IMG/VR virus record: IMGVR_UViG_3300032286_000077
Span: 1-32,641 of that record
DNA length: 32,641 nt
Source of the DNA: a virus
Direction: 5' to 3' (one strand)
Under the pieces are notes generated by a model. The model did no database searches. It had not been told where the DNA came from and saw nothing but the letters and a program-made list of their open reading frames with translations. Positions 1,731 to 26,852 of this stretch are shown piece after piece (the stretch's first letter is position 1; every line of letters starts with the position of its first letter). Position numbers and translations under genes: made by a program.

Positions 1731-2198
1731 TTACGCTATCAAGCCGTTCAAATAGGTTGTTTTGCCTGCTATCTTAGTGGCGGTCAATTCCTGCTTTTTG
1801 AGGTTGTTGGGGTCATAACTGACATGAACCCACCCGCTGTCGGGAATGCCTGATGTATAAAATTCTAAAATCAATTGGGTGTACTCCAAGTTATCCATAA
1901 TCCACTGCGCCAGCTCTGCATTGGCAACTCCAGGTATCTCAATGTCTGCCGCCATGCCCTTGCAGTGGTCTGATGTCTTGCTGCCGCCAACCGCCGCATT
2001 GGACTCAGGGCTGCGGTAAGCAGAATTCACCTTGACGCCCTTGCCGTAATGCTCACGCACAGGCTGAAGTACCTTTTCACAAAGCAGACGCAAATTCTCG
2101 GTGGCCTCTTCATCAGGCGTATTGTCAAACCCCATGCGTATAGCAGTTTCTGATTTGCACATCTCATGCAAGCTGAAATTGGCGGTTAACTGTGTCAT
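1731..2198 (-). CDS. Endolysin, peptidase M15 family (zinc D-Ala-D-Ala / L-Ala-D-Glu peptidase-like)
   Basis: The pattern FSLHEM ... SAYRSPESNAAVGGSKTSDHCKGMAADI ... WVHVSY matches the M15 zinc-ligand arrangement (H, D, H). It is the last gene of the lysis cassette, and its ATG overlaps the spanin stop (ATGA). Confidence 0.9.
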   Translation of the reverse strand: MTQLTANFSLHEMCKSETAIRMGFDNTPDEEATENLRLLCEKVLQPVREHYGKGVKVNSAYRSPESNAAVGGSKTSDHCKGMAADIEIPGVANAELAQWIMDNLEYTQLILEFYTSGIPDSGWVHVSYDPNNLKKQELTATKIAGKTTYLNGLIA

Positions 2199-2668
2199 TT
2201 TGTAGTCCTCATGGTTTCGTAGGTTTGGATGCAGGCGTTGAGCTTGCGGATGGCGGTGTCTCCCTCGGCTGTGATGGCAATAAGATCGTCAGCAGTCTTT
2301 CGGTCAAGTTCGGCTGATGCTGTTCCGCTGTGATCTCCAGCGGCAATGGTGGCATCACTGGTGGCTGATACGGCGCACTCGGGGGCTTTGACAGGAATGA
2401 ACAGCCTGCGCTCGCCACTAGCAATATCAGCGCGGAGCTTGTCTTCTTTAGCCTTTGCAACATTGTTTGCCTTTCGTAATGTCTGACCATAACTTTGCGC
2501 CACTTGCGCCATTGCCTGCTCGGTCTCCCTTGCCTTGGCATTCAGCGCGGCAATCTCAACTTGCTGGCGTGTATGCTCGTCATGCTTGCCCTTGATGTAT
2601 CCACCGCTAAATGATGACAGCACCGCCAAGACGATGCCAAGAATCACCCAAAGGTTAAACAAACTCAT
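2195..2668 (-). CDS. i-spanin (Rz-like inner-membrane spanin subunit)
   Basis: It has an N-terminal TMD (LWVILGIVLAVLSSFSGG) followed by a charged coiled-coil periplasmic domain. A lipoprotein ORF is embedded in another frame, and the gene lies between the holin and the endolysin. Confidence 0.8.
   Translation of the reverse strand: MSLFNLWVILGIVLAVLSSFSGGYIKGKHDEHTRQQVEIAALNAKARETEQAMAQVAQSYGQTLRKANNVAKAKEDKLRADIASGERRLFIPVKAPECAVSATSDATIAAGDHSGTASAELDRKTADDLIAITAEGDTAIRKLNACIQTYETMRTTK
2209..2463 (-). CDS. o-spanin (Rz1-like outer-membrane lipoprotein) fully embedded in the i-spanin gene
   Basis: An internal ATG at 2463 (AAAGG upstream) gives MLQRLKKTSSALILLVASAGC. This reads as a signal peptide plus lipobox Cys, followed by a proline-rich mature part of about 63 aa. 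Confidence 0.75.
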   Translation of the reverse strand: MLQRLKKTSSALILLVASAGCSFLSKPPSAPYQPPVMPPLPLEITAEQHQPNLTERLLTILLPSQPRETPPSASSTPASKPTKP

Positions 2669-2988
2669 GGTGCTGGTGGCTCATTGTCATTTGCTTCAGC
2701 CTTGGCGCTTGCGTTGGCAATTGCTTTGACACCCGACCTACCAGCGACACCGCCAAGCACCCCAGTGATGAAAACCATAATGGTGCTGATCTGTTGGGTG
2801 TACACCTTATCAATTGCCGCCATGCTTCCATTCATAGGCTGCTGAACAAAACTGACTGAGTAGAGAAACATCCCCATAGAGGCCAGCAGGATGGTCACCA
2901 AGACCACGATAACAAATGCCCATACCCTGACCTCAATCTCGTCAGCATTGAGGCGATTATTTGGTTTGTATCCGACTGTTGGCATCAC
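2665..2988 (-). CDS. Putative holin with two transmembrane domains
   Basis: There are two hydrophobic segments (WAFVIVVLVTILLASMGMFLYSV and ISTIMVFITGVLGGVAG) and a charged C-terminus. AAGGAG lies upstream of the GTG/ATG start, and the gene is immediately upstream of the spanins. Confidence 0.6.
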   Translation of the reverse strand: MMPTVGYKPNNRLNADEIEVRVWAFVIVVLVTILLASMGMFLYSVSFVQQPMNGSMAAIDKVYTQQISTIMVFITGVLGGVAGRSGVKAIANASAKAEANDNEPPAP

Positions 2989-3167
2989 TTCTTCTCCTTG
3001 GGTTTAATAAGCATTTCGGGGCAAGTTCCTGCTGCTGTACAAATTGGCGGCTTACATTCGGTATTTTGCCAATTTAATGGGTCTTGGCAAGGGTAGCGGT
3101 AACGATCATCGCAGCCAGTCAACACTACCAGCAAAACCGATAAAAACCAAATTTCGTAGACATTCAT
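2985..3167 (-). CDS. Small Cys-rich lipoprotein (60 aa precursor)
   Basis: The signal peptide ends in the canonical lipobox LTGC. The mature part starts CDD and carries four more Cys residues. The ATG overlaps the upstream stop (ATGA). Confidence 0.7.
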   Translation of the reverse strand: MNVYEIWFLSVLLVVLTGCDDRYRYPCQDPLNWQNTECKPPICTAAGTCPEMLIKPKEKK

Positions 3168-3331
3168 TTTTCTTTATCCTTTCGCTTTTGAGCTTCTATC
3201 TCACGGCGTAATTTTTCCACTTTTTCAAGTTGCTGGTTGACTTGATGCTTTGCATCTAAGATGTCTAGATACAGCAATGCCCCCATTGGTAGGAGGAGGG
3301 CAATAAGTACGCAAGCAGCTATCCATCCCAC
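3164..3331 (-). CDS. Small N-terminal-TMD protein with a coiled-coil tail (55 aa from GTG 3331; alternative 96-aa form from ATG 3454)
   Basis: The GTG at 3331 shares a G with the TAG of the upstream frame (TAGTG) and has GGGGAGG 5 nt upstream. The ATG at 3454 has AGGAG only 2 nt away and would overlap the upstream gene by 124 nt. Confidence 0.5.
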   Translation of the reverse strand: MGWIAACVLIALLLPMGALLYLDILDAKHQVNQQLEKVEKLRREIEAQKRKDKEK

Positions 3332-4029
3332 TATGTCCTCCCCCAGCGATTGACGAACAGGAGCCACAGCCACAGGTAAAGGAGGAATGTAATAGTCCCC
3401 AACAGGTACGCTACTTTTAGCTGGAAGTTTCTTTCCTCTTCCTTGCGTTGCCATAACTCCTGCCTGTTCTTAGCTTCCAGTTTTAGCCTTGCCTGTGTTT
3501 GCTCTTCTCCAATCTTCTCTCTCATGCTGAAAACTTCTGAATACAAAGCACCCATCTCTTGCGGAGCTTGAAAAACCATGCACTCTCTTATTTGCACAAC
3601 CAATCTATCCATCTCTTGCTGGGCCATCACTCGCTTAAGTGCTGACTCCATCAAGTTCTGATCAGGGTCGTAGATGTTTTTGCTCTTCTCTTCCTCTTCC
3701 CTGATGTGTGCGGCTAGTTGTTCTTGGAGTTTAAAAAATTGCGTGAGGTTAGAAACAATGTCAACCTTGACTTGAGTCTCGTCAACAGCGACATACTCAG
3801 ACTTCTTAGTCTTTGCAACAGGCTTTGCAATTTGAGACTTAGATTTACCGCCAAAGAATTTACTGAAGTTACCCCAAAATCCAGTAACTTCCTTATATAT
3901 CCCAGCAACCTCATCAGCAGTTCTTTTGATCTCAACAAAAGATTCTTTAGCCTGCTTGTAAAGCTCGCACCCAGCTTGGATGTTCTTAACAAGACCAGCC
4001 GCAAGGAGGCAGATGCTGATTGGATCAAT
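3331..4029 (-). CDS. Coiled-coil protein with a C-terminal membrane anchor; start unresolved (the first canonical start is TTG 3654, but the coding frame stays open back to 4029)
   Basis: My hand translation of this frame from 4029 gives a balanced sequence with RNY periodicity (IDPISICLLAAGLVKNIQAGCELYKQAKESFVEIKRTADEVAGIYKEV...). There is no ATG, GTG or TTG in the first 125 codons. The frame continues the 4030-4224 ORF through one TAA. Confidence 0.5.
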   Translation of the reverse strand: MDPISICLLAAGLVKNIQAGCELYKQAKESFVEIKRTADEVAGIYKEVTGFWGNFSKFFGGKSKSQIAKPVAKTKKSEYVAVDETQVKVDIVSNLTQFFKLQEQLAAHIREEEEKSKNIYDPDQNLMESALKRVMAQQEMDRLVVQIRECMVFQAPQEMGALYSEVFSMREKIGEEQTQARLKLEAKNRQELWQRKEEERNFQLKVAYLLGTITFLLYLWLWLLFVNRWGRT

Positions 4030-4224
4030 TTACAGCCCCAATAGTTTTTTGATGAATTCTGCCGCTACGCCAGGCCCAAACAACACCACCACCATCACCG
4101 CATACAAAAGGTATTCAATGCGGGTCATGCGCTTGTCGCCAGCAATAAAAGACTTTTCAATAGCCTCGTACCTTTGGGCGCAAATAGCCTCATGAACAGC
4201 AAAATCTTTTTCTAAATCGCTCAT
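4030..4224 (-). CDS. Small single-TMD membrane protein (64 aa; holin-like candidate)
   Basis: It has an amphipathic N-terminus and then the TMD IEYLLYAVMVVVLFGPGVAA. The ATG overlaps the upstream stop (ATGA), and the gene lies at the head of the lysis region. Confidence 0.7.
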   Translation of the reverse strand: MSDLEKDFAVHEAICAQRYEAIEKSFIAGDKRMTRIEYLLYAVMVVVLFGPGVAAEFIKKLLGL

Positions 4225-4388
4225 GATTCATCTGCGGGAAGTGGTGTGTTGCCCTCTGCAAGCCATTTCAAATACTCAGGCGTTGTCACTAAACAAGATT
4301 CTTGTTTGCCATCAGGCCATATACGCATTACTGCATCAGCCTCTGTCTGACCAAAACGAATGTAAAGTTTCCAAATAGGGTCGTTCAT
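4221..4388 (-). CDS. Small conserved-looking phage protein downstream of the tail fiber (55 aa, possible fiber accessory or chaperone)
   Basis: It is below the ORF-track size cutoff. The ATG at 4388 overlaps the fiber stop (ATGA) and its own stop overlaps the next ATG. The translation is MNDPIWKLYIRFGQTEADAVMRIWPDGKQESCLVTTPEYLKWLAEGNTPLPADES. Confidence 0.65.
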   Translation of the reverse strand: MNDPIWKLYIRFGQTEADAVMRIWPDGKQESCLVTTPEYLKWLAEGNTPLPADES

Positions 4389-6136
4389 AATTCACTTCCT
4401 GTACCAATAACTCTAGCTGAAGAACCAATTAAACCTGTTGCATTGCCAGCTACTAATCCAACCGCTACAGTTGCCAATAATTGAACTTGATTATCGGATG
4501 AGCCGTTAAAAGCTAATGCAGTAGTAGCTATTCCTGATGCGCCAGCGGCATAAACAGAGTATGTTCCTGTTGTAGTTATGCCAGTTACAGGTGTTCTAGG
4601 GGTTACAGGGTAAGTTAAAGGAATAATAGCTTGAGTGGCTCCAATAGCTTGGCCTGCAACCCCTATTAAAGTTCCATTCCATACAGGACAATACCGCTGG
4701 CACAAAGCCAACTCAGTCCCATAAGGTCTGTAATCAAAGCTCGTTGCTGTTGAGCCTTTTTCTAGCTGTATGCCTGTGATTTCAACCCAGTTGTTTGAGC
4801 TACCAGCATTGCCTGTATGTGCATTAACAAAGTTAATAGAAATCTCATTTGTTCCAGCAGGGACAGAAACAGTGCCAGTGTATGTCACAAATGAAGTTGT
4901 CAGAGATGTAGCTGAAACCGCATTTGTAGACGCATATCCAGTCCAACTTCCACCAGTTGAACCATTTACCCCTTGGTCAGTTCCAGTTCCAGTAACTACA
5001 CCACAAGCAAGAGTTCCTGCAAAGTCAGAACCTCTACGAGCTTGAAAACTTACTGTTACAGATTGACCAGCCAAATCGTAACAGTTGTTTGATTCAATAA
5101 CTTGAGTGGCAAACATATTGCCAGAATATGTACCAGCAAATTTATATAATCTTAATGCTTTTGTAAATGGGTATGTGCTAGTTGCGACTTGATACCCGTA
5201 AATTGTTCCTGAAGGTGCGCTACCTGTAGCACAAGCCCATCTGTCAACTGTATATTGGTTTGATGTTGTCAGGCTAACTGCGGCTGATGCTGTTCCTCTT
5301 TGGTCAATCACCATTGCACCATTAATAATGCGGTTTCTATAAGCAAAACCCATACCCAAACCAGCGCCGCCAATACTAGGCGCACCAGTAATTAATACAG
5401 TATCGGTGCTAGAGCTTCCAAGGGTGGGCGTTCCAATTGTTGGGGCTGTTCCCAACACAGCAGAGCCTGTACCTGTAATTGCCGCAAATCCAATATGGTC
5501 ATAGTCCCAAGATGCCGCCGTTGTTCCTGTGATCAAAATACAGGTATACAGCGTAGTTACGCCAGCGGGAATTGTAGAGATTGTGTTTCCACCACTTGAT
5601 TGGACTGTCAGCGTACCAGTTGAATTGTTTTCAATGGAATAGCTCATGCCCAAAGCCAGCGTGGAAGTCACAGGCAAAACAATGGTTTGAGCTAATGTTC
5701 CTGTAAAAAATTGCTGATGGTTGGATGCCGCTGTTAAGGTGGTTGTCCCACCTGCCGTAGCGGTAGTGGTGTAACCCATCTTAATGTTGTTGATCACAGG
5801 ATTGGTGACTGTGACCGCGCCTGTAACGTCCAACGTGCCTGCAATATTAGCGTTTACGCCAACATAAAGATTCTTAGCTACCCCTACACCACCCGCAGTA
5901 ATGATTGACCCTGTGGAGGTGCTAGAGGAGTCTGTGGTTAGGCTTGAGTTAATACCCGCCGCAAACGGTATGCGAGCCGTTGTGGTGGTTTGCCCATCCT
6001 TAGTGATAGCCGTGGACAAACCTGTTGCCAAGTCCGCTGTAAGGGCGTTAAAGGCGGTCGAGGATATAACTGTTCCCGCAACTACCGGTTGCCCCGAGGT
6101 GTTTATTTGGAATGTGCCGCTGCCGTTGTAACTCAT
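4385..6136 (-). CDS. Tail fiber / receptor-binding protein
   Basis: The N-terminus MSYNGSGTFQINTSGQPVVAGTVISSTAFNALTADLATGLSTAITKDGQ is typical of podovirus fiber anchors. The middle is rich in G, T and S. The C-terminal block has the NRIINGAMVIDQRG ... IQLEKGSTATSFDYRPYGTELALCQRY motifs seen in many fiber tip domains. Confidence 0.85.
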   Translation of the reverse strand: MSYNGSGTFQINTSGQPVVAGTVISSTAFNALTADLATGLSTAITKDGQTTTTARIPFAAGINSSLTTDSSSTSTGSIITAGGVGVAKNLYVGVNANIAGTLDVTGAVTVTNPVINNIKMGYTTTATAGGTTTLTAASNHQQFFTGTLAQTIVLPVTSTLALGMSYSIENNSTGTLTVQSSGGNTISTIPAGVTTLYTCILITGTTAASWDYDHIGFAAITGTGSAVLGTAPTIGTPTLGSSSTDTVLITGAPSIGGAGLGMGFAYRNRIINGAMVIDQRGTASAAVSLTTSNQYTVDRWACATGSAPSGTIYGYQVATSTYPFTKALRLYKFAGTYSGNMFATQVIESNNCYDLAGQSVTVSFQARRGSDFAGTLACGVVTGTGTDQGVNGSTGGSWTGYASTNAVSATSLTTSFVTYTGTVSVPAGTNEISINFVNAHTGNAGSSNNWVEITGIQLEKGSTATSFDYRPYGTELALCQRYCPVWNGTLIGVAGQAIGATQAIIPLTYPVTPRTPVTGITTTGTYSVYAAGASGIATTALAFNGSSDNQVQLLATVAVGLVAGNATGLIGSSARVIGTGSEL

Positions 6137-10964: not shown

Positions 10965-12512
10965 TTACAACACGCCACCAGTTTCGAACACTAGATCGGT
11001 AGCGACCCATTGCAATTGTATGCCCTGCGTAGCAGTTTTGATCAGCGGGGCAAACGTATATCCTATATTTGTGACCCCCTGCCAATCAGCGCTAGGCACT
11101 AAGCCCGATCCCCAAATAGCAGAATCCCACAATCCTGTGTCCCATATCCCATAAATACTGGCTGAGAAATTAAGCTGTGCCGATTCGTCCGCTAAGTTGT
11201 AGTCCACATTTACGTTTCCAAAGACAGATGGCGTACCATTTGATTGGAGGTGGTAGCGAATCATCTTGCATTGTTTTTGCAAGGCTGTTCCATAGGATTG
11301 AAAGCTCTGAAGTCCAAATCCTGCAATGTCAGCGGTGTCGTCTGTGTTGCCATTCCAAGCCTTACCCACATAGCCATCCCCACCAAAGTAAGGGTCATCT
11401 ATGTGCAATTCCCAACAATTGGCATACCAGCCTGTAAAGTTACACCAGCTTTTAGTGATGTTGTTCATCACAAATTGCTGTTGCTCGCCCTCGTCATAAG
11501 GGACATTCAAGATTAATTGATTTTCTTTAGGGTAATACAGCAAAGACCACCCAAAATTACCGCCATAAGCCGATATTGCCGCGCTCATGGCATATTGAAT
11601 CTTGTTGGTGATAGACACCCTTGGATCAAGTCTTGAGCTTTGCAATGCCCCACTCATAGGCACTACGCCATCTTGAGTAATAATCAGCAAGTCCCCGCCA
11701 AACTTTGTAAAGCAGCGTCTACCAATAGGTGCGCCAACTTTATAAAGTCCAATCTGTGAGATTCCTGTTGGTGTGGTTGGGTCTGTTAATCGCCAAACAA
11801 GAGCCTCGCCATTGCTTGTGATAAACACCAAATAATCGTCAACGCCATAACCCGCGTCTAACGTCCAAGTCATCCCCGCCATGATGTAGCCACCAAGCTG
11901 GAAAACACTGGTCATATCTAACGCAACCGCCGCACCGCCAATAGAGTTAACAGGCAAATACCATGCTTTTAAGGTGTTAGAGGTTGTAAGCCAAATGCGG
12001 TTTTTAAACAGAATGATGTTAGAAACCGTTGCGGTATCCACATTGGTAATGTCATAAGGCGACCCATCGCCATCTTTATGCCAATCTGTGCCATCAAAGG
12101 TGCGTAATTTATCTGCGCCGTTAACCGCCATCAGATAAGAGCCGCCTGTTGTGGTGATGTTTACATACTGAAATTTTGAGTTTGAAAGGCCAGTTACAGC
12201 CGGTGCGCCAACAGCGCCGGTGCTAGTAGCATCGTAAATCTTGCCGTCAGATACAGCAAATAACTTGTTTGACGTTCCCGAGCTGTACGCCATCAGCGTT
12301 TGTACTTGAGCTGGCAAGCCTGTTGCGTGTTTCGTGTAGCCGTTTCGCAGGATAACCGAGTTAGTGCCAGGCCAAAAGTTCTGCAACGTTACCGCGTCCA
12401 AAGGATCCATTGCCCCCAACGCATCCCGAGCATTCCACCCGCCAATGGGCGCGGCAACAGTAACTGTCTGTGATGCTTGCTGGCGCGGGATTCGGGCAAA
12501 TGAATTTAGCAT
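10965..12512 (-). CDS. Tail tubular protein B-like (nozzle) structural protein
   Basis: It is a 515-aa beta-rich protein directly after the gp11-like gene in a T7-type gene order. The call rests on position and size only. Confidence 0.55.
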   Translation of the reverse strand: MLNSFARIPRQQASQTVTVAAPIGGWNARDALGAMDPLDAVTLQNFWPGTNSVILRNGYTKHATGLPAQVQTLMAYSSGTSNKLFAVSDGKIYDATSTGAVGAPAVTGLSNSKFQYVNITTTGGSYLMAVNGADKLRTFDGTDWHKDGDGSPYDITNVDTATVSNIILFKNRIWLTTSNTLKAWYLPVNSIGGAAVALDMTSVFQLGGYIMAGMTWTLDAGYGVDDYLVFITSNGEALVWRLTDPTTPTGISQIGLYKVGAPIGRRCFTKFGGDLLIITQDGVVPMSGALQSSRLDPRVSITNKIQYAMSAAISAYGGNFGWSLLYYPKENQLILNVPYDEGEQQQFVMNNITKSWCNFTGWYANCWELHIDDPYFGGDGYVGKAWNGNTDDTADIAGFGLQSFQSYGTALQKQCKMIRYHLQSNGTPSVFGNVNVDYNLADESAQLNFSASIYGIWDTGLWDSAIWGSGLVPSADWQGVTNIGYTFAPLIKTATQGIQLQWVATDLVFETGGVL

Positions 12513-14178: not shown

Positions 14179-14912
14179 GTTAATTCCTTGAGTTTGAAAG
14201 CAGTTTCCTGCATAAGACCATCGCCGTAAAACACCACTTCAGCATCCTGCGTTTCTATGAATTTTTCCATTTCAATCGCCGCTTGGAGCATCTGCTGTGT
14301 TGTTTGGAAAGTTCTCAAACCAACTCTGACCATGATTTTAATCTGATCTTTGCCAGTATGAGCACCCGCGTGGCGGTTATTTGTATATGAACAATCCATG
14401 CCATGAATGTCAAACCGGCGAAACCCTAAAGCCGCCGAAACATTCATTGCCCTCATGCCTACACTAGAACCGCCACCAATCAGGCTTTCCATGCCCTCGG
14501 GGTGGTGCTGGGCTACCCATGCCACCGTCTCGAAATCATCTCCATTTACCAAATGCCATACCTTAACATTTTTCCCTTTAAGAATCTCCCAAAAGTTTGG
14601 GTGGCAAACCGAGGCCATCAGGTACTTAGTGGCTTTCTGTGGCTTTCTTAACATTTCAGCCTTGTGCGGTCTTGGATCGCAGTCCACATGAAAGTCAGGA
14701 ATAACACCCCTCTCCACCAAGTAATCATGCGCCCCTGAGACGGTCATTATTGGGTGTTTGAGCTGCTTCCAAGTATCTGCAAGGCTTGGCCCATAACAAG
14801 CAATGGTCATGCGCCGGTCGTTGAATTTGCCCTTTTTCTTGAGCAGGGGCAAATGAATTGACTTTGCCATCTGCTCATGGCGCTCGGCGTTACTCAAGAC
14901 CCCTTTAAGCAT
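14175..14912 (-). CDS. DUF115 (MptE/Maf-like) putative glycosyltransferase, stand-alone copy
   Basis: The motifs are CYGPSL ... SGAHDYLVERGVIPDFHVDCDP ... LIGGGSSVGMRAMNVSAALGFRRFDIHGMDCSY. It is a paralogue of the N-terminal half of the 15340-16971 protein. Confidence 0.75.
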   Translation of the reverse strand: MLKGVLSNAERHEQMAKSIHLPLLKKKGKFNDRRMTIACYGPSLADTWKQLKHPIMTVSGAHDYLVERGVIPDFHVDCDPRPHKAEMLRKPQKATKYLMASVCHPNFWEILKGKNVKVWHLVNGDDFETVAWVAQHHPEGMESLIGGGSSVGMRAMNVSAALGFRRFDIHGMDCSYTNNRHAGAHTGKDQIKIMVRVGLRTFQTTQQMLQAAIEMEKFIETQDAEVVFYGDGLMQETAFKLKELT

Positions 14913-15496
14913 TCCACCCTCATATCTCTAAATGGGAAATGGTAGCGAGGCTCGCAAAACGTAATGTTCTGCATTCCTACGGTTTCCAGCATATCTTTCA
15001 ATGGGCGTTGAAACCAGCCCCAATGGTGGCACATGGCCTCAGATTTATATTTGGGGTCACCATACAACGCATTTAGCGTCATAAAGGGCTGTAAAGGCTC
15101 TTTGTTGACCACGCAATTATGGACATAGGCAAACACCTTATCCATGCAGGGAAGCTCTAGGATCATCTTGCCGCCAGGCTTTAGCACCCGCTTCCACTCG
15201 CTCAGTAAGTCATAAACTTCCCACTCGTAAAAGTGTTCTAGAACGTGAATTGCCGCTACAGCATCAGCAGAATCGCTTGCTATCTCTAGTTTTCTTAGGT
15301 CGCATTTGATGTCAGAAATGTCAGAATGCAAATCGACATTTATCCAACCGTCCCATTTCTTTGATCCGCATCCAAGGTTGTAGGCCGTCTCGTAGCGCTC
15401 TTCCACTTGTCGATCAGTATTTGAGGCGAGAATTCTTCCCTCACGAACCTCTGCGCCTTGGAAATGAGTTCGTTCATGTTCTGCTGTTTTGTCCAT
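14894..15496 (-). CDS. Class I SAM-dependent methyltransferase
   Basis: It carries motif I NLGCGSKK, then DAVAAIHVLEHF and VLKPGGKMILELP. The ATG at 15496 has GAGGG 6 nt upstream but overlaps the upstream gene by 157 nt. The alternative GTG at 15406 overlaps by 67 nt. Confidence 0.75.
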   Translation of the reverse strand: MDKTAEHERTHFQGAEVREGRILASNTDRQVEERYETAYNLGCGSKKWDGWINVDLHSDISDIKCDLRKLEIASDSADAVAAIHVLEHFYEWEVYDLLSEWKRVLKPGGKMILELPCMDKVFAYVHNCVVNKEPLQPFMTLNALYGDPKYKSEAMCHHWGWFQRPLKDMLETVGMQNITFCEPRYHFPFRDMRVECLKGS

Positions 15497-16971
15497 TCGA
15501 TGCCCTCTTTGATGTTGCCGATATAAATGGGAAAATCTTTCAAGGCTGGGTGCGGCTCTGCAACCACAAAACAACCCTGTCTAATCGCCTCAATTGCCCT
15601 GTTTGCGCTTTTGTAAGAAGCAGTGGTAGGGATCACCACTATATCGGCTCGGGCAAATTCTTCCAACATGGTTTCTTTCGACCAAGGAATCGCCCCCTCA
15701 AAGTTTGACACCACCCGCAAGGGATAACCCTCAAGGTCAGGCAGTATGCGCTGCAAGCTATCACGGTTGACGTGATGCCCAAACCACAGCAAATTTGTCC
15801 CAGCGTAATGCGGTGGCATCTCGGGAAACTCATAAGGGTCGGCAATGACAGTTGCATCCCGCCCCAACTCTTTAATTCTTTTAGCCATCTCGGTGGTTGA
15901 GCAAGTCACCGCATCAGCCAGCCGCAGCGCCTCTTGGTAGTGCAACCAATCAAAATGGTCATCACAAAAGTCCACCACCACCCAAGCGCCTCGGGCTTTA
16001 GCTCTTGCCATATCCATCAGCTCACTGGCTTGCGGTTTGGCAAATATCAACGTGTCGGCAGTCAGGTCGTTTAAGGTTGCCCAATCCCCTGACGGTATTT
16101 TTGCCCGATAGCGCCAGCTCGCCGCATTCTTGTCGCCCCAATGGATAAATGAGGTGCGGTCGTTAAGGTTTGCCTTAACATTGATGATGTCACCCAACTC
16201 CATCATGTTCTGTTCACGCTTTTTAATGATGGCTTGGATCAACCCATGCCCATGCCCATTAAATGTGGCATCAGGCAAATAATCGTAATAGGTTTGGAAG
16301 TGCTCGGCCTGCAACGCCATTGCTGTATTGCAATAAAAGGTCTCGCCCTGTGGGTCAATCTTGACCTCAATCAGCTTGTCGCCCTCTTTTAGCCCCTCGC
16401 CGTTTACCCTAAGTAAATCGCCGTCATTGCAAGAGTCAAACCCAAACAGCTCAAACTGGCGGTAGCCAAGAACGTAAAACAGCGATATAGCCCTTAATCC
16501 TGAGGTTGTACCCCCACCTATCAACATACAGTTTTTAGGGCGGTCTTGCCCTTTTTTAACGTATGGATGCCATAGCGTGACCTGACACCCATCAAGGTTG
16601 TCAAACATCGCTGGATGGCATTGGCTGGCAATCATGTAATGCACAGTCGGCTGCGGTTTGTAAAACGCTATCCTGTGCTCTTGCGGGTCGATGGCTAATG
16701 CGTAATCAGGCATAACGCCGTTATCAATTAACCAATCATGTGCGCCCTTAATTGCCACAATAGGCGACCCTGCCGCTTTCATCTTTTTAATAAGCTCTAA
16801 CTGACCTTTAACGCTTGGTGCGCTTGCCACCAACAAGATCGCGCCGGTCTTTATTTCCTGCGCTTGTCTGACCTGTGGGTAACCTCTAGCAACCGCCGCA
16901 TCCATGTTGGCAAACAATGTCTCATCTTCTGCGACACACTTACCGGTAATTTTTAAAGGCAAAGAACTCAT
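15340..16971 (-). CDS. Two-domain putative glycosyltransferase: N-terminal DUF115 (Maf-like) plus a C-terminal GT-B-like domain
   Basis: The N-terminal half has VASAPSV ... KGAHDWLIDNGVMPDYALAIDP ... LIGGGTTSGLRAISLFYVLGYRQFELFGFDS. The C-terminal half has ADIVVIPTTASYKSANRAIEAIRQGCFVVAEPHP, which resembles the nucleotide-sugar-binding half of GT-B enzymes. Confidence 0.75.
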   Translation of the reverse strand: MSSLPLKITGKCVAEDETLFANMDAAVARGYPQVRQAQEIKTGAILLVASAPSVKGQLELIKKMKAAGSPIVAIKGAHDWLIDNGVMPDYALAIDPQEHRIAFYKPQPTVHYMIASQCHPAMFDNLDGCQVTLWHPYVKKGQDRPKNCMLIGGGTTSGLRAISLFYVLGYRQFELFGFDSCNDGDLLRVNGEGLKEGDKLIEVKIDPQGETFYCNTAMALQAEHFQTYYDYLPDATFNGHGHGLIQAIIKKREQNMMELGDIINVKANLNDRTSFIHWGDKNAASWRYRAKIPSGDWATLNDLTADTLIFAKPQASELMDMARAKARGAWVVVDFCDDHFDWLHYQEALRLADAVTCSTTEMAKRIKELGRDATVIADPYEFPEMPPHYAGTNLLWFGHHVNRDSLQRILPDLEGYPLRVVSNFEGAIPWSKETMLEEFARADIVVIPTTASYKSANRAIEAIRQGCFVVAEPHPALKDFPIYIGNIKEGIEWTKQQNMNELISKAQRFVREEFSPQILIDKWKSATRRPTTLDADQRNGTVG

Positions 16972-25649: not shown

Positions 25650-26852
25650 TTAAGCTGTTACGGTGGATTCTAACAACAATACGGCCTTTTTGCCTGTAAA
25701 GTCTTCCCATCGCTTAACAATTACATCACAATATTTGGGGTCTAACTCCATTAATCGCGCATACCTTCCGTGCTTTTCTGCTGCCAGCAATGTTGTACCG
25801 CTTCCACCAAAGGAATCCAACACAATATCGCCGCCTTTGGTGTTGTTAAGCATTTGGTACTCAAACAAGGCAACTGGCTTCATAGTTGGGTGTTCACCAT
25901 TGCGGGTGGGTTTGTCAAATTCCAAAATGGTAGTTTGCTTACGGTCAGCCGACCAAAGGTGTCCAGCTCCGTCTTTCCAACCATACAAACAAGGCTCATG
26001 TTTCCAATGGTAGTCTTGCCGCCCCATGACAAGGCTGGATTTTTTCCATATTAAGCATTGGCGTACAGTCCATCCCGCATCTAAGCAAGCGCCACGAAAG
26101 TTGTAACCCTCGCTATCAGCATGCCAAATATAAAAGACTGCCCCAGCTTTCATCATTAAATCGGCGGTTACAAACGCATCGCGCAAAAACTGCCGAAATT
26201 GGTCATTTCCCATACTGTCGTTTTTTATGGTTAGCTTTTCTTTTGTGCTGCCCTCATATGCCACGTTATAGGGTGGGTCGGTTAACCACATATCCACAAG
26301 TTGGCCATCGCATAGCTTTTCCATGTCGGTCAGGCTGCACGAATCTCCGCACATTAGGCGGTGCTTGCCCAACTGGTATATGTCGCCCAGCTTAGTCATT
26401 GGCTCATCAGGCACGTCAGGAACAGCGTCCTCGTCTGTTAAGCCCTCAATCACATCAGGCTCAAGCAATGCGCTTAATTCTTTGGGGTCAAAGCCCAGCA
26501 TCTCTAAGGCAAAGCCGTCTGCCAGCAGATCGTTAAGCTCTATGGTTAACATTTCATTGTCCCAGCCGGCGTTAAGCGCCAGGCGGTTGTCGGCAATGAT
26601 GTAGGCTTTCTTTTGGGTTTCTGTTAAGTCTGCCAGCTCTATGGTGGGCACTTCCTTGTAGCCCAGCTTCCTTGCCGCTAATAACCTACCGTGGCCTGCA
26701 ATGATGCCGTTAGCCCCATCTACCAATATTGGGTTAGTCCAACCAAATTCTTTTATGCTGCCGGCTATTTGTGCCACTTGCTCATCGCTGTGGGTGCGGC
26801 TGTTATTAATGTAAGGGATTAGGCTGTCAACCTTTTTTTGGGTTATCTTCAT
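25650..26852 (-). CDS. ParB-like nuclease domain fused to an N6-adenine/N4-cytosine DNA methyltransferase
   Basis: The N-terminus has ParB-type motifs (NPILVDGANGIIAGHGRLLAARKLG). Then come DPPYN (motif IV) and the C-terminal DSFGGSGTT (motif I), which is the beta-class motif order. Confidence 0.9.
   Translation of the reverse strand: MKITQKKVDSLIPYINNSRTHSDEQVAQIAGSIKEFGWTNPILVDGANGIIAGHGRLLAARKLGYKEVPTIELADLTETQKKAYIIADNRLALNAGWDNEMLTIELNDLLADGFALEMLGFDPKELSALLEPDVIEGLTDEDAVPDVPDEPMTKLGDIYQLGKHRLMCGDSCSLTDMEKLCDGQLVDMWLTDPPYNVAYEGSTKEKLTIKNDSMGNDQFRQFLRDAFVTADLMMKAGAVFYIWHADSEGYNFRGACLDAGWTVRQCLIWKKSSLVMGRQDYHWKHEPCLYGWKDGAGHLWSADRKQTTILEFDKPTRNGEHPTMKPVALFEYQMLNNTKGGDIVLDSFGGSGTTLLAAEKHGRYARLMELDPKYCDVIVKRWEDFTGKKAVLLLESTVTA

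What the first reader, a model, noticed from the sequence alone, without database searches (positions are those of the whole stretch)
3331..4224. A genuine coding frame of about 232 codons with no canonical start for its first 125 codons, in frame behind the TAA of the upstream membrane-protein gene
Reading the minus strand, the 64-aa ORF (4224-4030) ends ...AAA AAA CTA TTG GGG CTG TAA. The same frame then continues ATT GAT CCA ATC AGC ATC TGC ... with no stop until the TAG at 3333-3331.

The first 125 codons after the TAA contain no ATG, GTG or TTG; the first is TTG at 3654. Even so, this frame has strong purine-first (RNY) codon periodicity and a balanced, helical composition (…CELYKQAKESFVEIKRTADEVAGIYKEVTGFWGNFSKFFGGKSKSQIAKPVAKTKKSEYVAVDETQVKVDIVSNLTQFFKLQEQLAAHIREEEEK…).

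The two ORF-track calls that cover this stretch (3714-4028 minus and 3718-4044 plus) are Leu/Ser/Arg-rich shadow frames. A standard gene caller will therefore either leave a 375-nt hole or annotate the wrong frame.

Three explanations are possible:
- Termination-reinitiation at the ATT (or the ATC three codons later) directly after the TAA. This fits the stop/start coupling used at every other junction in this operon.
- Programmed TAA readthrough giving a 297-aa product with TMDs at both ends, alongside the 64-aa product. That would be attractive for a holin/antiholin-style pair.
- A nonsense mutation or a sequencing error.
Basis: seen in the sequence. Interest (0 to 1): 0.7.

Follow-up and report, generated by a model that had tools for sequence, protein, structure and literature searches.

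The report
Phage gene starting at ATT codon
A real phage membrane-protein gene begins with the very rare start codon ATT, which about 70% of 266 related phage contigs keep at the same position, and the ATT overlaps a normal TTG start codon that opens a second reading frame.

Summary
On the minus strand, 4029-3331 is an open 232-codon frame directly behind the TAA (4032-4030) of a 64-aa gene. Its first in-frame ATG/GTG/TTG is codon 126.

It is a real gene: 3381 database homologues were found, mostly 232 aa, and all begin at the same position (x-DPISICLLAAGLVK).

At the DNA level this first codon is ATT in about 189 and GTG in about 77 of 266 related viral contigs, across five subfamilies down to about 30% identity. 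It is never ATG, TTG, ATC or ATA. ATT starts carry a Shine-Dalgarno sequence ending at -6. GTG starts mostly lack one and sit 1 nt after an upstream TGA.

Readthrough, sequencing error and a downstream start are all rejected. Upstream genes and stop codons differ between relatives, and identical junctions recur in independent metagenomes.

One unexpected result concerns the "shadow" ORF 4028-3714, in the +1 frame. It starts at the TTG inside A-TTG-A and stays open for about 80-150 codons in nearly all ATT/GTG relatives. GTG relatives carry ATG or GTG two bases upstream, in that same +1 frame. A sister clade with a plain ATG start has no such ORF. However, the +1 peptide sequence itself is not conserved.

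Best reading: this is an AUU-initiated gene, probably at a start site that serves two frames.

The parts
4030..4224 (-). Upstream 64-aa gene encoding a small protein with a C-terminal hydrophobic segment. Its stop codon TAA is at 4032-4030.
   Evidence: ORF list and translation. A similar small protein (xHEAxCAxR motif plus a hydrophobic tail) precedes the gene in L084. Other relatives have unrelated upstream genes.
4036..4039 (-). Shine-Dalgarno-like GGGG. Its pairing with the anti-SD ends 6 nt before the ATT.
   Evidence: RNA duplex with ACCUCCUUA gives -4.7 kcal/mol. All 37 unique ATT contexts in subfamily 1 have an SD of -4.7 to -9.3 kcal/mol ending at -5 or -6, almost always -6.
4027..4029 (-). 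ATT (AUU), the start codon of the 232-aa gene, directly abutting the TAA.
   Evidence: It occupies the same alignment position as the GTG start of homologues. ATT is found in about 189 of 266 related loci and is never ATC or ATA.
3331..4029 (-). 232-codon gene for an all-helical, C-terminally anchored membrane protein of unknown function. Stop codon TAG is at 3333-3331.
   Evidence: 3381 homologues. 130 representatives at the 50% clustering level. AF2 model with pLDDT 76.6, five helices, the last running through the hydrophobic C-terminus. No Pfam or PDB relative.
3346..3414 (-). C-terminal transmembrane segment (about residues 206-228, VAYLLGTITFLLYLWLWLLFV).
   Evidence: Translation. Hydrophobic C-terminus conserved in alignment A1. 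Helix 157-231 in the AF2 model.
3714..4028 (-). +1-frame ORF of 104 codons. It starts at the TTG (4028-4026) that overlaps the ATT by two bases. It is a possible overprinted ORF or second product of the same start site.
   Evidence: Open for 80-155 codons in nearly all ATT/GTG relatives, against a median of 3-47 in synonymous shuffles. There is no amino-acid or synonymous-site constraint.
3164..3331 (-). Downstream 55-aa gene with an N-terminal TM segment. It probably starts at GTG 3331-3329, overlapping the TAG stop (ATAGTG), with SD GGGGGAGG at 3337-3344.
   Evidence: Sequence reading. In relative L085 the called downstream gene is 55 aa and overlaps the stop of the 232-aa gene.

Best explanation
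Window 4029-3331 (minus strand) is a genuine late/lysis-region phage gene. It encodes a 232-aa helical, tail-anchored membrane protein.

Translation initiates on the non-canonical codon AUU (ATT 4029-4027), which initiator tRNA reads as fMet. The ribosome is positioned in two ways. One is a Shine-Dalgarno element (GGGG 4039-4036) with a fixed spacing of about 6 nt. The other is delivery by ribosomes terminating at the abutting TAA of the upstream 64-aa gene (translational coupling).

The product is a separate protein, not a readthrough fusion. AUU is a weak start codon that IF3 discriminates against, so the gene is expected to be expressed at a low level that depends on the state of the cell.

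The family uses two interchangeable start architectures at the same position. One is SD + ATT, as in the window. The other is an SD-less GTG placed 1 nt after an upstream TGA.

What is shown: the coding status, the start position, the conservation of ATT, the SD/start-codon association, and the proximity of upstream stops. What is inferred: actual initiation at AUU, the low expression level, and IF3 sensitivity.

The probable reason for ATT rather than ATG is that the start overlaps the canonical start of a +1-frame ORF. This is set out in the section on the most novel reading.
For: 1. Homologues are separate genes that begin at this codon. Most top hits are 232 aa and start M/V-DPISICLLAAGLVK. 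At the DNA level those starts are GTG.

2. The codon at this position in related viral contigs:
- subfamily 1: ATT in 62, GTG in 19 of 81
- subfamily 2, 49% identity: 72/4
- subfamily 3, 45% identity: 8/4
- subfamily 4, about 30% identity: 30/45
- subfamily 5: 18/6
No locus has ATG, TTG, ATC or ATA.

3. No locus in subfamily 1 has a canonical start between the upstream in-frame stop and this codon. The first downstream canonical start is scattered over codons 8-127.

4. Codon 1 is ATT in 32/32 unique 5' sequences. The Ile codons 4 and 6 switch freely between ATC and ATT. Codons 2-16 are variable at all third positions with conserved amino acids.

5. The SD differs by start type. ATT contexts give -4.7 to -9.3 kcal/mol, ending at -5 or -6 (n=37). 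GTG contexts give >= -2.8 kcal/mol (n=9). Mann-Whitney U=0, p=3.6e-6, not corrected for phylogeny. The same trend holds in subfamily 4 (-5.3 vs -2.8).

6. An upstream stop lies within 0-16 nt in nearly all contexts.

7. The identical junction occurs in independent metagenomes: L004, L005, L007, L008.

8. Published precedent for AUU starts:
- AUU starts limit expression of infC and pcnB in E. coli, and ATT does so for ebpA in E. faecalis (PMC4447247)
- AUU is the most IF3-, temperature- and nutrient-sensitive of the start codons tested (PMC5499595)
- a UAA-GGU-AUU junction is translated by both reinitiation and de novo initiation (PMC3592434)
Against: - There is no experimental evidence (N-terminal sequence, toeprint, Ribo-seq) for this family. 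The host is unknown, and no relative was found in 185,579 representative bacterial and archaeal genomes.
- The window's own SD (GGGG, -4.7 kcal/mol) is the weakest of the ATT contexts.
- A better start codon, UUG, lies 1 nt downstream in another frame and should compete for the same ribosomes.
- The SD/start-codon association was not corrected for shared ancestry.
Confidence: 0.85

Rival explanations
1. Programmed readthrough of the TAA at 4032-4030 produces a 297-aa fusion of the 64-aa and 232-aa frames, forming a holin/antiholin-like pair.
For: In the window the two frames are in phase and separated only by TAA. Both parts carry hydrophobic segments.
Against: The gene is preceded in relatives by many unrelated upstream genes. 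Their stops are TAA, TAG or TGA, lie 0-16 nt away, and are often in another frame, for example TGA-T-GTG. Homologues with GTG starts are stand-alone 232-aa genes. A conserved SD precedes the ATT.
Confidence: 0.02
2. The TAA or the ATT is a sequencing or assembly error or a recent mutation, so this is a pseudogene or a mis-assembled ATG/GTG start.
For: ATT differs from ATG by one base. Single contigs can carry errors.
Against: The identical junction is found in at least 4 independent metagenome contigs. ATT is present in about 189 of 266 loci from five subfamilies with different flanks. The ORF is intact and under purifying selection.
Confidence: 0.01
3. The real product is the 107-aa C-terminal part, starting at TTG 3654 or ATG 3651. 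The upstream 125 codons are untranslated.
For: These are the first canonical in-frame starts. Met127 is fairly well conserved.
Against: The N-terminal 40 codons are the best-conserved protein segment: amino-acid heterozygosity is 0.10 against synonymous heterozygosity of 0.39. GTG-start homologues are full length. The position of the first downstream canonical start varies from codon 8 to 127 among relatives. No SD was noted there.
Confidence: 0.03
4. Translation starts only at the canonical +1-frame codon (TTG 4028-4026). It then reaches frame 0 by a programmed -1 frameshift, giving a chimeric protein.
For: The +1 frame is open with a canonical start. The window has U UUU UUA in the correct phase 7 codons before the +1 stop.
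Against: No slippery heptamer is conserved: 40/70 unique sequences in subfamily 1 and 50/65 in subfamily 4 have none in phase. The frame-0 N-terminus is under strong amino-acid constraint from codon 2, while the +1 peptide is unconstrained.
Confidence: 0.02
5. ATT is retained only as an expression-limiting weak start, as in infC, pcnB and ebpA. The open +1 frame is a compositional by-product with no function.
For: - The +1 peptide shows no amino-acid conservation above the +2 control frame.
- There is no synonymous-rate depression in the overlap.
- Shuffles restricted to the local region are not significant.
- The antisense codon-aligned frame is also relatively poor in stops at the 5' end.
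- Some ATT loci have lost the +1 ORF.
Against: - It does not explain why TTG, ATC, ATA and CTG never replace ATT.
- It does not explain why 67 of 77 GTG starts are preceded by AT or GT, which creates ATG or GTG in the +1 frame. About 12.5% would be expected by chance.
- It does not explain why the ATG-start sister clade has 4.9 +1-frame stops in the first 80 codons, against 0.0-0.16 in three ATT/GTG subfamilies.
Confidence: 0.4

Closest known systems
E. coli infC (IF3) AUU start codon
   Same: A conserved AUU initiator. It lies directly downstream of the preceding gene's stop (thrS UAA-GGU-AUU, against UAA-AUU here and UAA-GGA-CAC-AAA-AUU in relatives). It is preceded by an SD and translated by a mix of reinitiation and de novo initiation (PMC3592434, PMC5499595).
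   Different: In infC the AUU serves autoregulation by its own product, IF3. Here the product is a phage membrane protein, the codon alternates with GUG in relatives, and it overlaps a UUG in another frame.
E. coli pcnB and Enterococcus faecalis ebpA (AUU/ATT starts that limit expression)
   Same: A rare ATT start conserved among strains. Annotation pipelines pick a downstream canonical codon instead. The effect is attenuation of a potentially costly protein (PMC4447247).
   Different: Those are single cellular genes with experimental proof. This is a large uncultivated-phage gene family with no experimental data.
Embedded +1-frame lysis genes (lambda Rz/Rz1; phiX174 E within D); comparison from general knowledge
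   Same: A second ORF in the +1 frame of a phage late/lysis-region gene. The window itself has an Rz-like gene with an embedded lipoprotein ORF.
   Different: Rz1 and E start internally with their own ribosome-binding sites and encode conserved, functional sequences. Here the two start codons physically overlap, and the +1 peptide sequence is not conserved.
Dual-start holin genes (lambda S105/S107); comparison from general knowledge
   Same: Two adjacent initiation codons at one ribosome-binding site could set a fixed ratio of two products in a lysis-region gene.
   Different: The holin dual starts are in the same frame and give holin and antiholin differing by two residues. Here the starts are in different frames.
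[quoted passage not shown]
   Same: Two overlapping ORFs are expressed from start codons a few nucleotides apart in different frames.
   Different: Those use eukaryotic scanning and leaky scanning. Here the mechanism would be SD-positioned or reinitiating bacterial ribosomes choosing between overlapping triplets.

Membership tests
Genes initiated at a non-canonical AUU codon (infC/pcnB/ebpA type) | Protein-level conservation extends upstream of every canonical start, up to a conserved ATT | tested here: met
   the N-terminus DPISICLLAAGLVK is conserved. There is no canonical start between the upstream stop and the ATT. The first downstream canonical start is at codon 126 in the window.
Genes initiated at a non-canonical AUU codon (infC/pcnB/ebpA type) | Shine-Dalgarno sequence at functional spacing from the ATT | tested here: met
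   37/37 unique ATT contexts have an SD of -4.7 to -9.3 kcal/mol ending at -5 or -6. The same holds in subfamilies 2-5.
Genes initiated at a non-canonical AUU codon (infC/pcnB/ebpA type) | ATT conserved among homologues, while synonymous Ile codons are not used | tested here: met
   About 189 of 266 loci have ATT and the rest have GTG. There is no ATC or ATA, although internal Ile codons vary between ATC and ATT.
Genes initiated at a non-canonical AUU codon (infC/pcnB/ebpA type) | Direct demonstration of initiation at AUU and of reduced, IF3-sensitive expression | not testable with these tools
   This needs toeprinting, N-terminal mass spectrometry, or reporter fusions with ATT-to-ATG and ATT-to-non-start mutations.
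Programmed stop-codon readthrough | The same upstream ORF and an in-frame leaky stop are conserved in homologues | tested here: not met
   Upstream genes are unrelated between clades. Stops are TAA, TAG or TGA, 0-16 nt away, and often out of frame.
Translational coupling (termination-reinitiation) | The stop of the preceding ORF overlaps or lies within a few nucleotides of the start | tested here: met
   The gap is 0 nt in the window and 0-16 nt in nearly all contexts. GTG starts are 1 nt after TGA and lack an SD.
Translational coupling (termination-reinitiation) | Downstream translation depends on upstream translation | not testable with these tools
   This needs premature-stop constructs in the upstream gene.
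Overprinted (dual-coding) gene pair | The alternative-frame ORF is longer than expected given the primary protein and its codon usage | tested here: met
   The +1 frame is open for 80-155 codons, against a shuffle median of 3-47. P is 0.000-0.035 in subfamilies 1, 2 and 4, and 0.0-0.11 in subfamily 3. It has 0.0-0.16 stops in the first 80 codons, against about 2.5 expected. Shuffles restricted to the local region are not significant.
Overprinted (dual-coding) gene pair | A conserved start codon for the alternative frame | tested here: met
   TTG is present in every ATT locus. ATG or GTG sits 2 nt upstream in 67/77 GTG loci, including 45/45 in subfamily 4. The remaining subfamily 1 GTG loci have a +1 start within 2 codons (read).
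Overprinted (dual-coding) gene pair | Reduced synonymous variation in the overlap | tested here: not met
   Synonymous heterozygosity is 0.376 in the overlap against 0.364 downstream in subfamily 1, and 0.251 against 0.275 in subfamily 2.
Overprinted (dual-coding) gene pair | The alternative-frame amino-acid sequence is conserved above a non-coding control frame | tested here: not met
   Amino-acid heterozygosity of the +1 frame equals that of the +2 frame in every 20-codon block.
Programmed -1 ribosomal frameshift | A conserved slippery heptamer in phase near the end of the upstream frame | tested here: not met
   most relatives have no X XXY YYZ in phase, and none is conserved by position.
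Holin/antiholin dual-start gene | Two in-frame start codons a few codons apart in a small multi-TMD protein | tested here: not met
   The adjacent starts are in different frames. The protein is 232 aa with a single C-terminal TM helix. There is no holin family hit.

The most novel reading that the evidence does not exclude
The ATT is not just a weak start. It may be half of a two-frame start site.

In A-TTG-A, the weak frame-0 start AUU overlaps a canonical UUG that opens a +1-frame ORF of about 100 codons (window 4028-3714). In GTG relatives, the motif R-TG-TG places an ATG or GTG for the +1 frame two bases ahead of the frame-0 GUG.

Codon 2 is always GAY. Given that, ATT and GTG are the only frame-0 start codons that allow an overlapping canonical +1 start. 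This matches the exclusive use of ATT/GTG: 266 loci and no ATG, TTG, ATC or ATA. The sister clade with a plain ATG start has no +1 ORF.

One ribosome-binding or reinitiation site would then partition ribosomes between two frames in a ratio set by the codon pair. The +1 product, or merely its translation, is maintained even though its amino-acid sequence evolves freely.
Probability: 0.5. Interest if true: 0.8.

Novelty: new variant of a known kind. Interest (0 to 1): 0.68.

Why it matters
Natural AUU start codons are extremely rare. Only two are reported in E. coli, and non-canonical triplets make up 0.004-0.024% of annotated starts (PMC4447247, PMC5499595).

This case differs in three ways:
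- **Scale.** An abundant family of genes from uncultivated phages (3381 database proteins) keeps AUU across deep divergence.
- **Annotation.** Standard gene callers systematically truncate the gene, extend it, or call the wrong frame. Database entries of 220, 224 and 255 aa are examples, and two GenBank records have starts annotated 7-8 codons too late.
- **Mechanism.** If the two-frame start site is real, it explains why a non-canonical start is selected: overlap with a second frame's start. It would also be a compact bacterial-virus counterpart of the overlapping out-of-frame starts of eukaryotic RNA viruses. It is directly testable with simple reporter constructs.

Tried and rejected
- **Near-identical DNA in GenBank phages:** none found. 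By tblastn only three spring-water metagenome phages match, at about 29-31% identity.
- **Prophage or host identification** through 185,579 representative genomes: no relative found.
- **Function assignment:** none obtained.
  - Pfam gave nothing.
  - PHROGs gave one weak hit to a family of unknown function.
  - A PDB profile search gave nothing significant.
  - Foldseek against PDB gave E>0.8, with only generic helical bundles such as syntaxins.
  - Foldseek against BFVD gave only uncharacterised homologues from uncultured phages.
- **mRNA structure around the junction:** no unusual structure, z = -0.11.
- **Frameshift model** (U UUU UUA near the +1 stop in the window): rejected, because no slippery site is conserved.
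- **The +1 ORF as a conserved protein:** rejected. There is no synonymous-rate depression and no amino-acid conservation above the +2 frame. PHROGs gave no hit for +1 peptides.
- **Database proteins starting with 'M':** I first took these as ATG starts. The DNA shows GTG.
- **N-terminally truncated database entries:** these are not reliable indicators of ATT. For example, P0127/L166 has a GTG start.
- **ATT use as a genome-wide habit:** a window-wide scan found only this site as a serious SD + non-canonical start candidate.
- **Literature searches** for ATT/AUU starts in phages, and for overlapping out-of-frame starts in bacteria or phages: no description of this family was found.
Full report
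**1. Observation**

On the minus strand the 64-aa ORF 4224-4030 ends ...AAA AAA CTA TTG GGG CTG TAA. The same frame then runs ATT GAT CCA ATC AGC ATC TGC ... for 232 sense codons to TAG 3333-3331. The first in-frame ATG/GTG/TTG is TTG at 3654, codon 126.

**2. It is a real gene**

- A search of 5.8 billion clustered proteins returned 3381 hits at E<=1e-3.
- Most of the best 120 hits are exactly 232 aa at 74-93% identity.
- These proteins begin M/V-DPISICLLAAGLVK, precisely at the position of the window's ATT.
- A full scan of 1.84 billion 50%-identity representatives found 130 family representatives down to about 24% identity.
- The family shares an N-terminal motif x-D-P-h-x-h-h-x-A...G-C-E-L-Y-K, a variable Lys-rich linker, a conserved helical core (VYDP..N....AL.RV...IRE.MVY..PPELG.LY) and a hydrophobic C-terminus.

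Context and fold:
- AlphaFold2 with a 23-sequence alignment gives an all-helical model, pLDDT 76.6. Residues 32-80 are disordered, and the last helix (157-231) runs through the C-terminal hydrophobic segment.
- Pfam, a PDB profile search and Foldseek give no informative relative.
- The gene lies in a phage late region between a tail-fibre-like gene (4385-6136) and a lysis cassette. The cassette comprises small TM proteins, an Rz-like spanin (2195-2668) with an embedded lipoprotein ORF, and an M15 endolysin (1731-2198).
- The capsid, portal and terminase identify a tailed phage. Its closest cultured relatives by capsid are Stenotrophomonas phage BUCT555, a Bradyrhizobium phage and Mx8, at 51-57% identity.
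- The host is unknown, and no relative was found in representative bacterial genomes.

**3. The start codon**

I fetched related loci from IMG/VR and anchored each to the family's first residue by tblastn.

| Group | Identity to window protein | ATT | GTG |
|---|---|---|---|
| Subfamily 1 (window's own, incl. window) | 72-97% | 62 | 19 |
| Subfamily 2 (P0125-like) | 49% | 72 | 4 |
| Subfamily 3 (P0131-like) | 45% | 8 | 4 |
| Subfamily 4 (P0154-like) | about 30% | 30 | 45 |
| Subfamily 5 (IDPISILFAANAC) | not determined | 18 | 6 |

- After removing two duplicated contigs, the totals are about 189 ATT and 77 GTG in 266 loci. There is no ATG, TTG, ATC or ATA.
- Database proteins printed with an initial 'M' turned out to have GTG at the DNA level.
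- In subfamily 1 no locus has a canonical start between the upstream in-frame stop and this codon. The first downstream canonical start is scattered over codons 8, 9, 13, 23, 32, 42, 71, 105, 126 and 127.
- Among 32 distinct 5' sequences with ATT, codon 1 is invariably ATT. The Ile codons 4 and 6 alternate between ATC and ATT. All 15 third positions of codons 2-16 vary while the amino acids are kept.

So the region from codon 2 onward is translated, and the third base of codon 1 is under its own constraint. That is the signature of a start codon, not of an internal Ile.

**4. Ribosome-binding context**

- All 37 unique ATT contexts in subfamily 1 carry a Shine-Dalgarno sequence (TAAGGACACAAA-ATT, TAGGAGACTGAA-ATT, GAGGAGTAGGTC-ATT). 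The window has TTGGGGCTGTAA-ATT.
- Duplex energies against ACCUCCUUA are -4.7 to -9.3 kcal/mol, and the paired stretch ends at -5 or -6, almost always -6.
- The nine unique GTG contexts have essentially no SD (>= -2.8 kcal/mol). Mann-Whitney U=0, p=3.6e-6, not corrected for phylogeny.
- Subfamily 4 shows the same tendency, -5.3 against -2.8 kcal/mol.
- An upstream open frame of at least 40 codons ends 0-16 nt before the start in nearly all contexts. GTG starts typically sit 1 nt after a TGA.
- There is no unusual mRNA structure at the junction, z = -0.11.

The family therefore has two alternative solutions at one position. One is SD + AUU. The other is an SD-less GUG dependent on termination-reinitiation. 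On a neighbour-joining tree of subfamily 1, ATT is the inferred root state, with at least 6 changes.

**5.

- **Initiation at the ATT next to the TAA: supported.**
- **Readthrough: rejected.** Upstream genes are unrelated between clades, stops are TAA, TAG or TGA and often out of frame, and GTG homologues are stand-alone genes.
- **Sequencing error or nonsense mutation: rejected.** The identical TAA-ATT junction is present in independent metagenome contigs (L004, L005, L007, L008), and ATT is the majority state.
- **A downstream start at codon 126: rejected.** The N-terminal 40 codons are the best-conserved part of the protein.

Published work gives the expected behaviour of such a start.
- AUU is reported for only two E. 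coli genes, infC and pcnB, where it limits expression. ATT likewise attenuates ebpA in E. faecalis (PMC4447247).
- AUU-initiated mRNA is the most sensitive to IF3 excess, low temperature, poor medium and stationary phase (PMC5499595).
- The infC-type UAA-GGU-AUU junction is translated roughly equally by reinitiation and de novo initiation, and abutting stop/start pairs depend strongly on an SD (PMC3592434).

**6. An unexpected second layer: the +1 frame**

How long the +1 frame stays open from the start:
- 80-133 codons in all 70 unique subfamily 1 sequences
- 84-155 codons in 63 of 64 unique ATT sequences of subfamily 2
- 91-130 codons in subfamily 3
- 76-142 codons in all of subfamily 4

Comparison with expectation:
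- Whole-gene synonymous-codon shuffles give median open lengths of 3-47 codons. The probability of reaching the observed length is 0.000-0.035 in subfamilies 1, 2 and 4 (0.0-0.11 in subfamily 3).
- +1 stops in the first 80 codons, observed against shuffled: 0.00 vs 2.46 in subfamily 1, 0.16 vs 2.69 in subfamily 2, and 0.03 vs 2.45 in subfamily 4. In subfamily 5 the contrast is weak: 2.18 vs 2.60, with only 64% of sequences stop-free.
- The last 80 codons of the same genes carry 5.7-7.8 +1 stops.
- At the column level, NTA codons make up 2 of 38 variants at Leu/Val/Ile columns where they would create a +1 stop. They make up 8 of 24 at 'safe' columns in the same region, and 19 of 41 at equivalent downstream columns.

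Start codons for the +1 frame:
- In the GTG loci, the two bases before the GTG are AT or GT in 67 of 77, including 45 of 45 in subfamily 4 with more than 25 different flanks.
- This creates ATG or GTG in the +1 frame (R-TG-TG). About 12.5% would be expected by chance.
- The remaining subfamily 1 GTG loci have a +1-frame ATG or GTG within two codons upstream (read).

The sister clade as a contrast:
- Its proteins start M-P-L... with no Asp, and it uses a plain ATG in 51 of 52 loci.
- Its +1 frame closes at codon 2-3 in 41 of 49 unique sequences, with 4.9 stops in the first 80 codons.

Given the invariant GAY at codon 2, ATT (giving TTG at +1) and GTG (with RTG at -2) are the only start-capable frame-0 codons compatible with an overlapping canonical +1 start. 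This matches the exclusive ATT/GTG usage exactly.

**7. Evidence against a conventional overprinted protein**

- Synonymous diversity in the overlap is not reduced: 0.376 vs 0.364 in subfamily 1, and 0.251 vs 0.275 in subfamily 2.
- The +1 amino-acid heterozygosity equals that of the +2 control frame in every block.
- The +1 peptides are Leu/Ser/Arg/Lys-rich with pI about 12, as expected for an off-frame reading.
- Shuffles restricted to the local region are not significant.
- The +1 ORF is closed in the four subfamily 2 GTG loci, in six unique subfamily 5 ATT sequences, and in the distant GenBank relatives.
- A frameshift model is rejected because no slippery heptamer is conserved.

What seems to be maintained is that the +1 frame can be initiated and read for about 100 codons, not what it encodes. 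I therefore treat the two-frame start site as the most novel reading compatible with the data, at about 50%, and not as established.

**8. Verdict**

- The gene is an AUU-initiated, SD-assisted, translationally coupled phage membrane-protein gene.
- AUU is conserved across a large, deeply diverged family of uncultivated freshwater-type phages.
- Standard gene callers mis-annotate it. Database entries of 220, 224 and 255 aa are examples. The annotated starts in MW202462 and MW202484 are 8 and 7 codons too late.
- The mechanism of non-canonical initiation is known, so this is a new variant of a known kind.
- The likely coupling of the AUU to an overlapping +1 start is, as far as my literature searches show, undescribed for phages.

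Noticed in passing
window 3164-3454 (minus): The listed 96-aa ORF (ATG 3454) overlaps the 3' end of the 232-aa gene by 124 nt. A GTG at 3331-3329 overlaps the TAG stop (ATAGTG) and is preceded by GGGGGAGG. It would give a 55-aa protein with an N-terminal TM segment. In relative L085 the called downstream gene is 55 aa.
   Followed up: partly
window 2209-2541 within 2195-2668 (minus): The Rz-like i-spanin gene contains an embedded +1-frame ORF with a lipoprotein signal (…SSALILLVASAGCSF…). This is probably an Rz1-like o-spanin starting at the internal Met (MLQRLKK, about 2463).
   Followed up: no
window 2985-3167 (minus): A 60-aa ORF with a lipobox-like signal peptide (LLVVLTGCDD) and several Cys residues. 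It is a second small putative lipoprotein, just upstream of the 107-aa multi-TM protein (2665-2988, phrog_25359, possibly the holin).
   Followed up: no
L081 (MW202462.1) 3998-4690; L082 (MW202484.1) 3001-3726: The GenBank annotations of the two distant homologues start 8 and 7 codons too late, at an internal ATG. The conserved N-terminus (V-LDPLTLL / V-DPISLL) begins at a GTG next to the upstream stop.
   Followed up: yes
window 3718-4044 (plus): The antisense, codon-aligned 108-aa ORF is open in the window. The equivalent frame is stop-free over the first 80 codons in only 21% of subfamily 1 relatives (76% of subfamily 2, first 84 codons). It behaves as a compositional shadow. The 5' half of the gene is generally poor in TTA, CTA and TCA codons.
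   Followed up: partly
window 25650-26852 (minus): A 400-aa protein combining a ParB-like nuclease N-terminal domain with a DNA methyltransferase domain (phrog_498, E=7e-175). It sits next to the terminase genes.
   Followed up: no
window 14894-15574 vs 15340-16971 (minus): The 226-aa ORF (TTG start) overlaps the preceding 543-aa ORF by about 235 nt. Its true start is probably further downstream, or the overlap is real. This was not examined.
   Followed up: no
window 10965-12512 (minus): A 515-aa protein inside the structural module matches phrog_5107, annotated 'amidase' in the lysis category (E=1e-115). It may be a virion-associated cell-wall hydrolase.
   Followed up: no
window 3717-3740 (minus), frame-0 codons 97-104: CAA TTT TTT AAA contains U UUU UUA, the classical -1 slippery heptamer, in phase with the +1 ORF 7 codons before its stop. 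It is not conserved in relatives, so it is probably fortuitous.
   Followed up: yes
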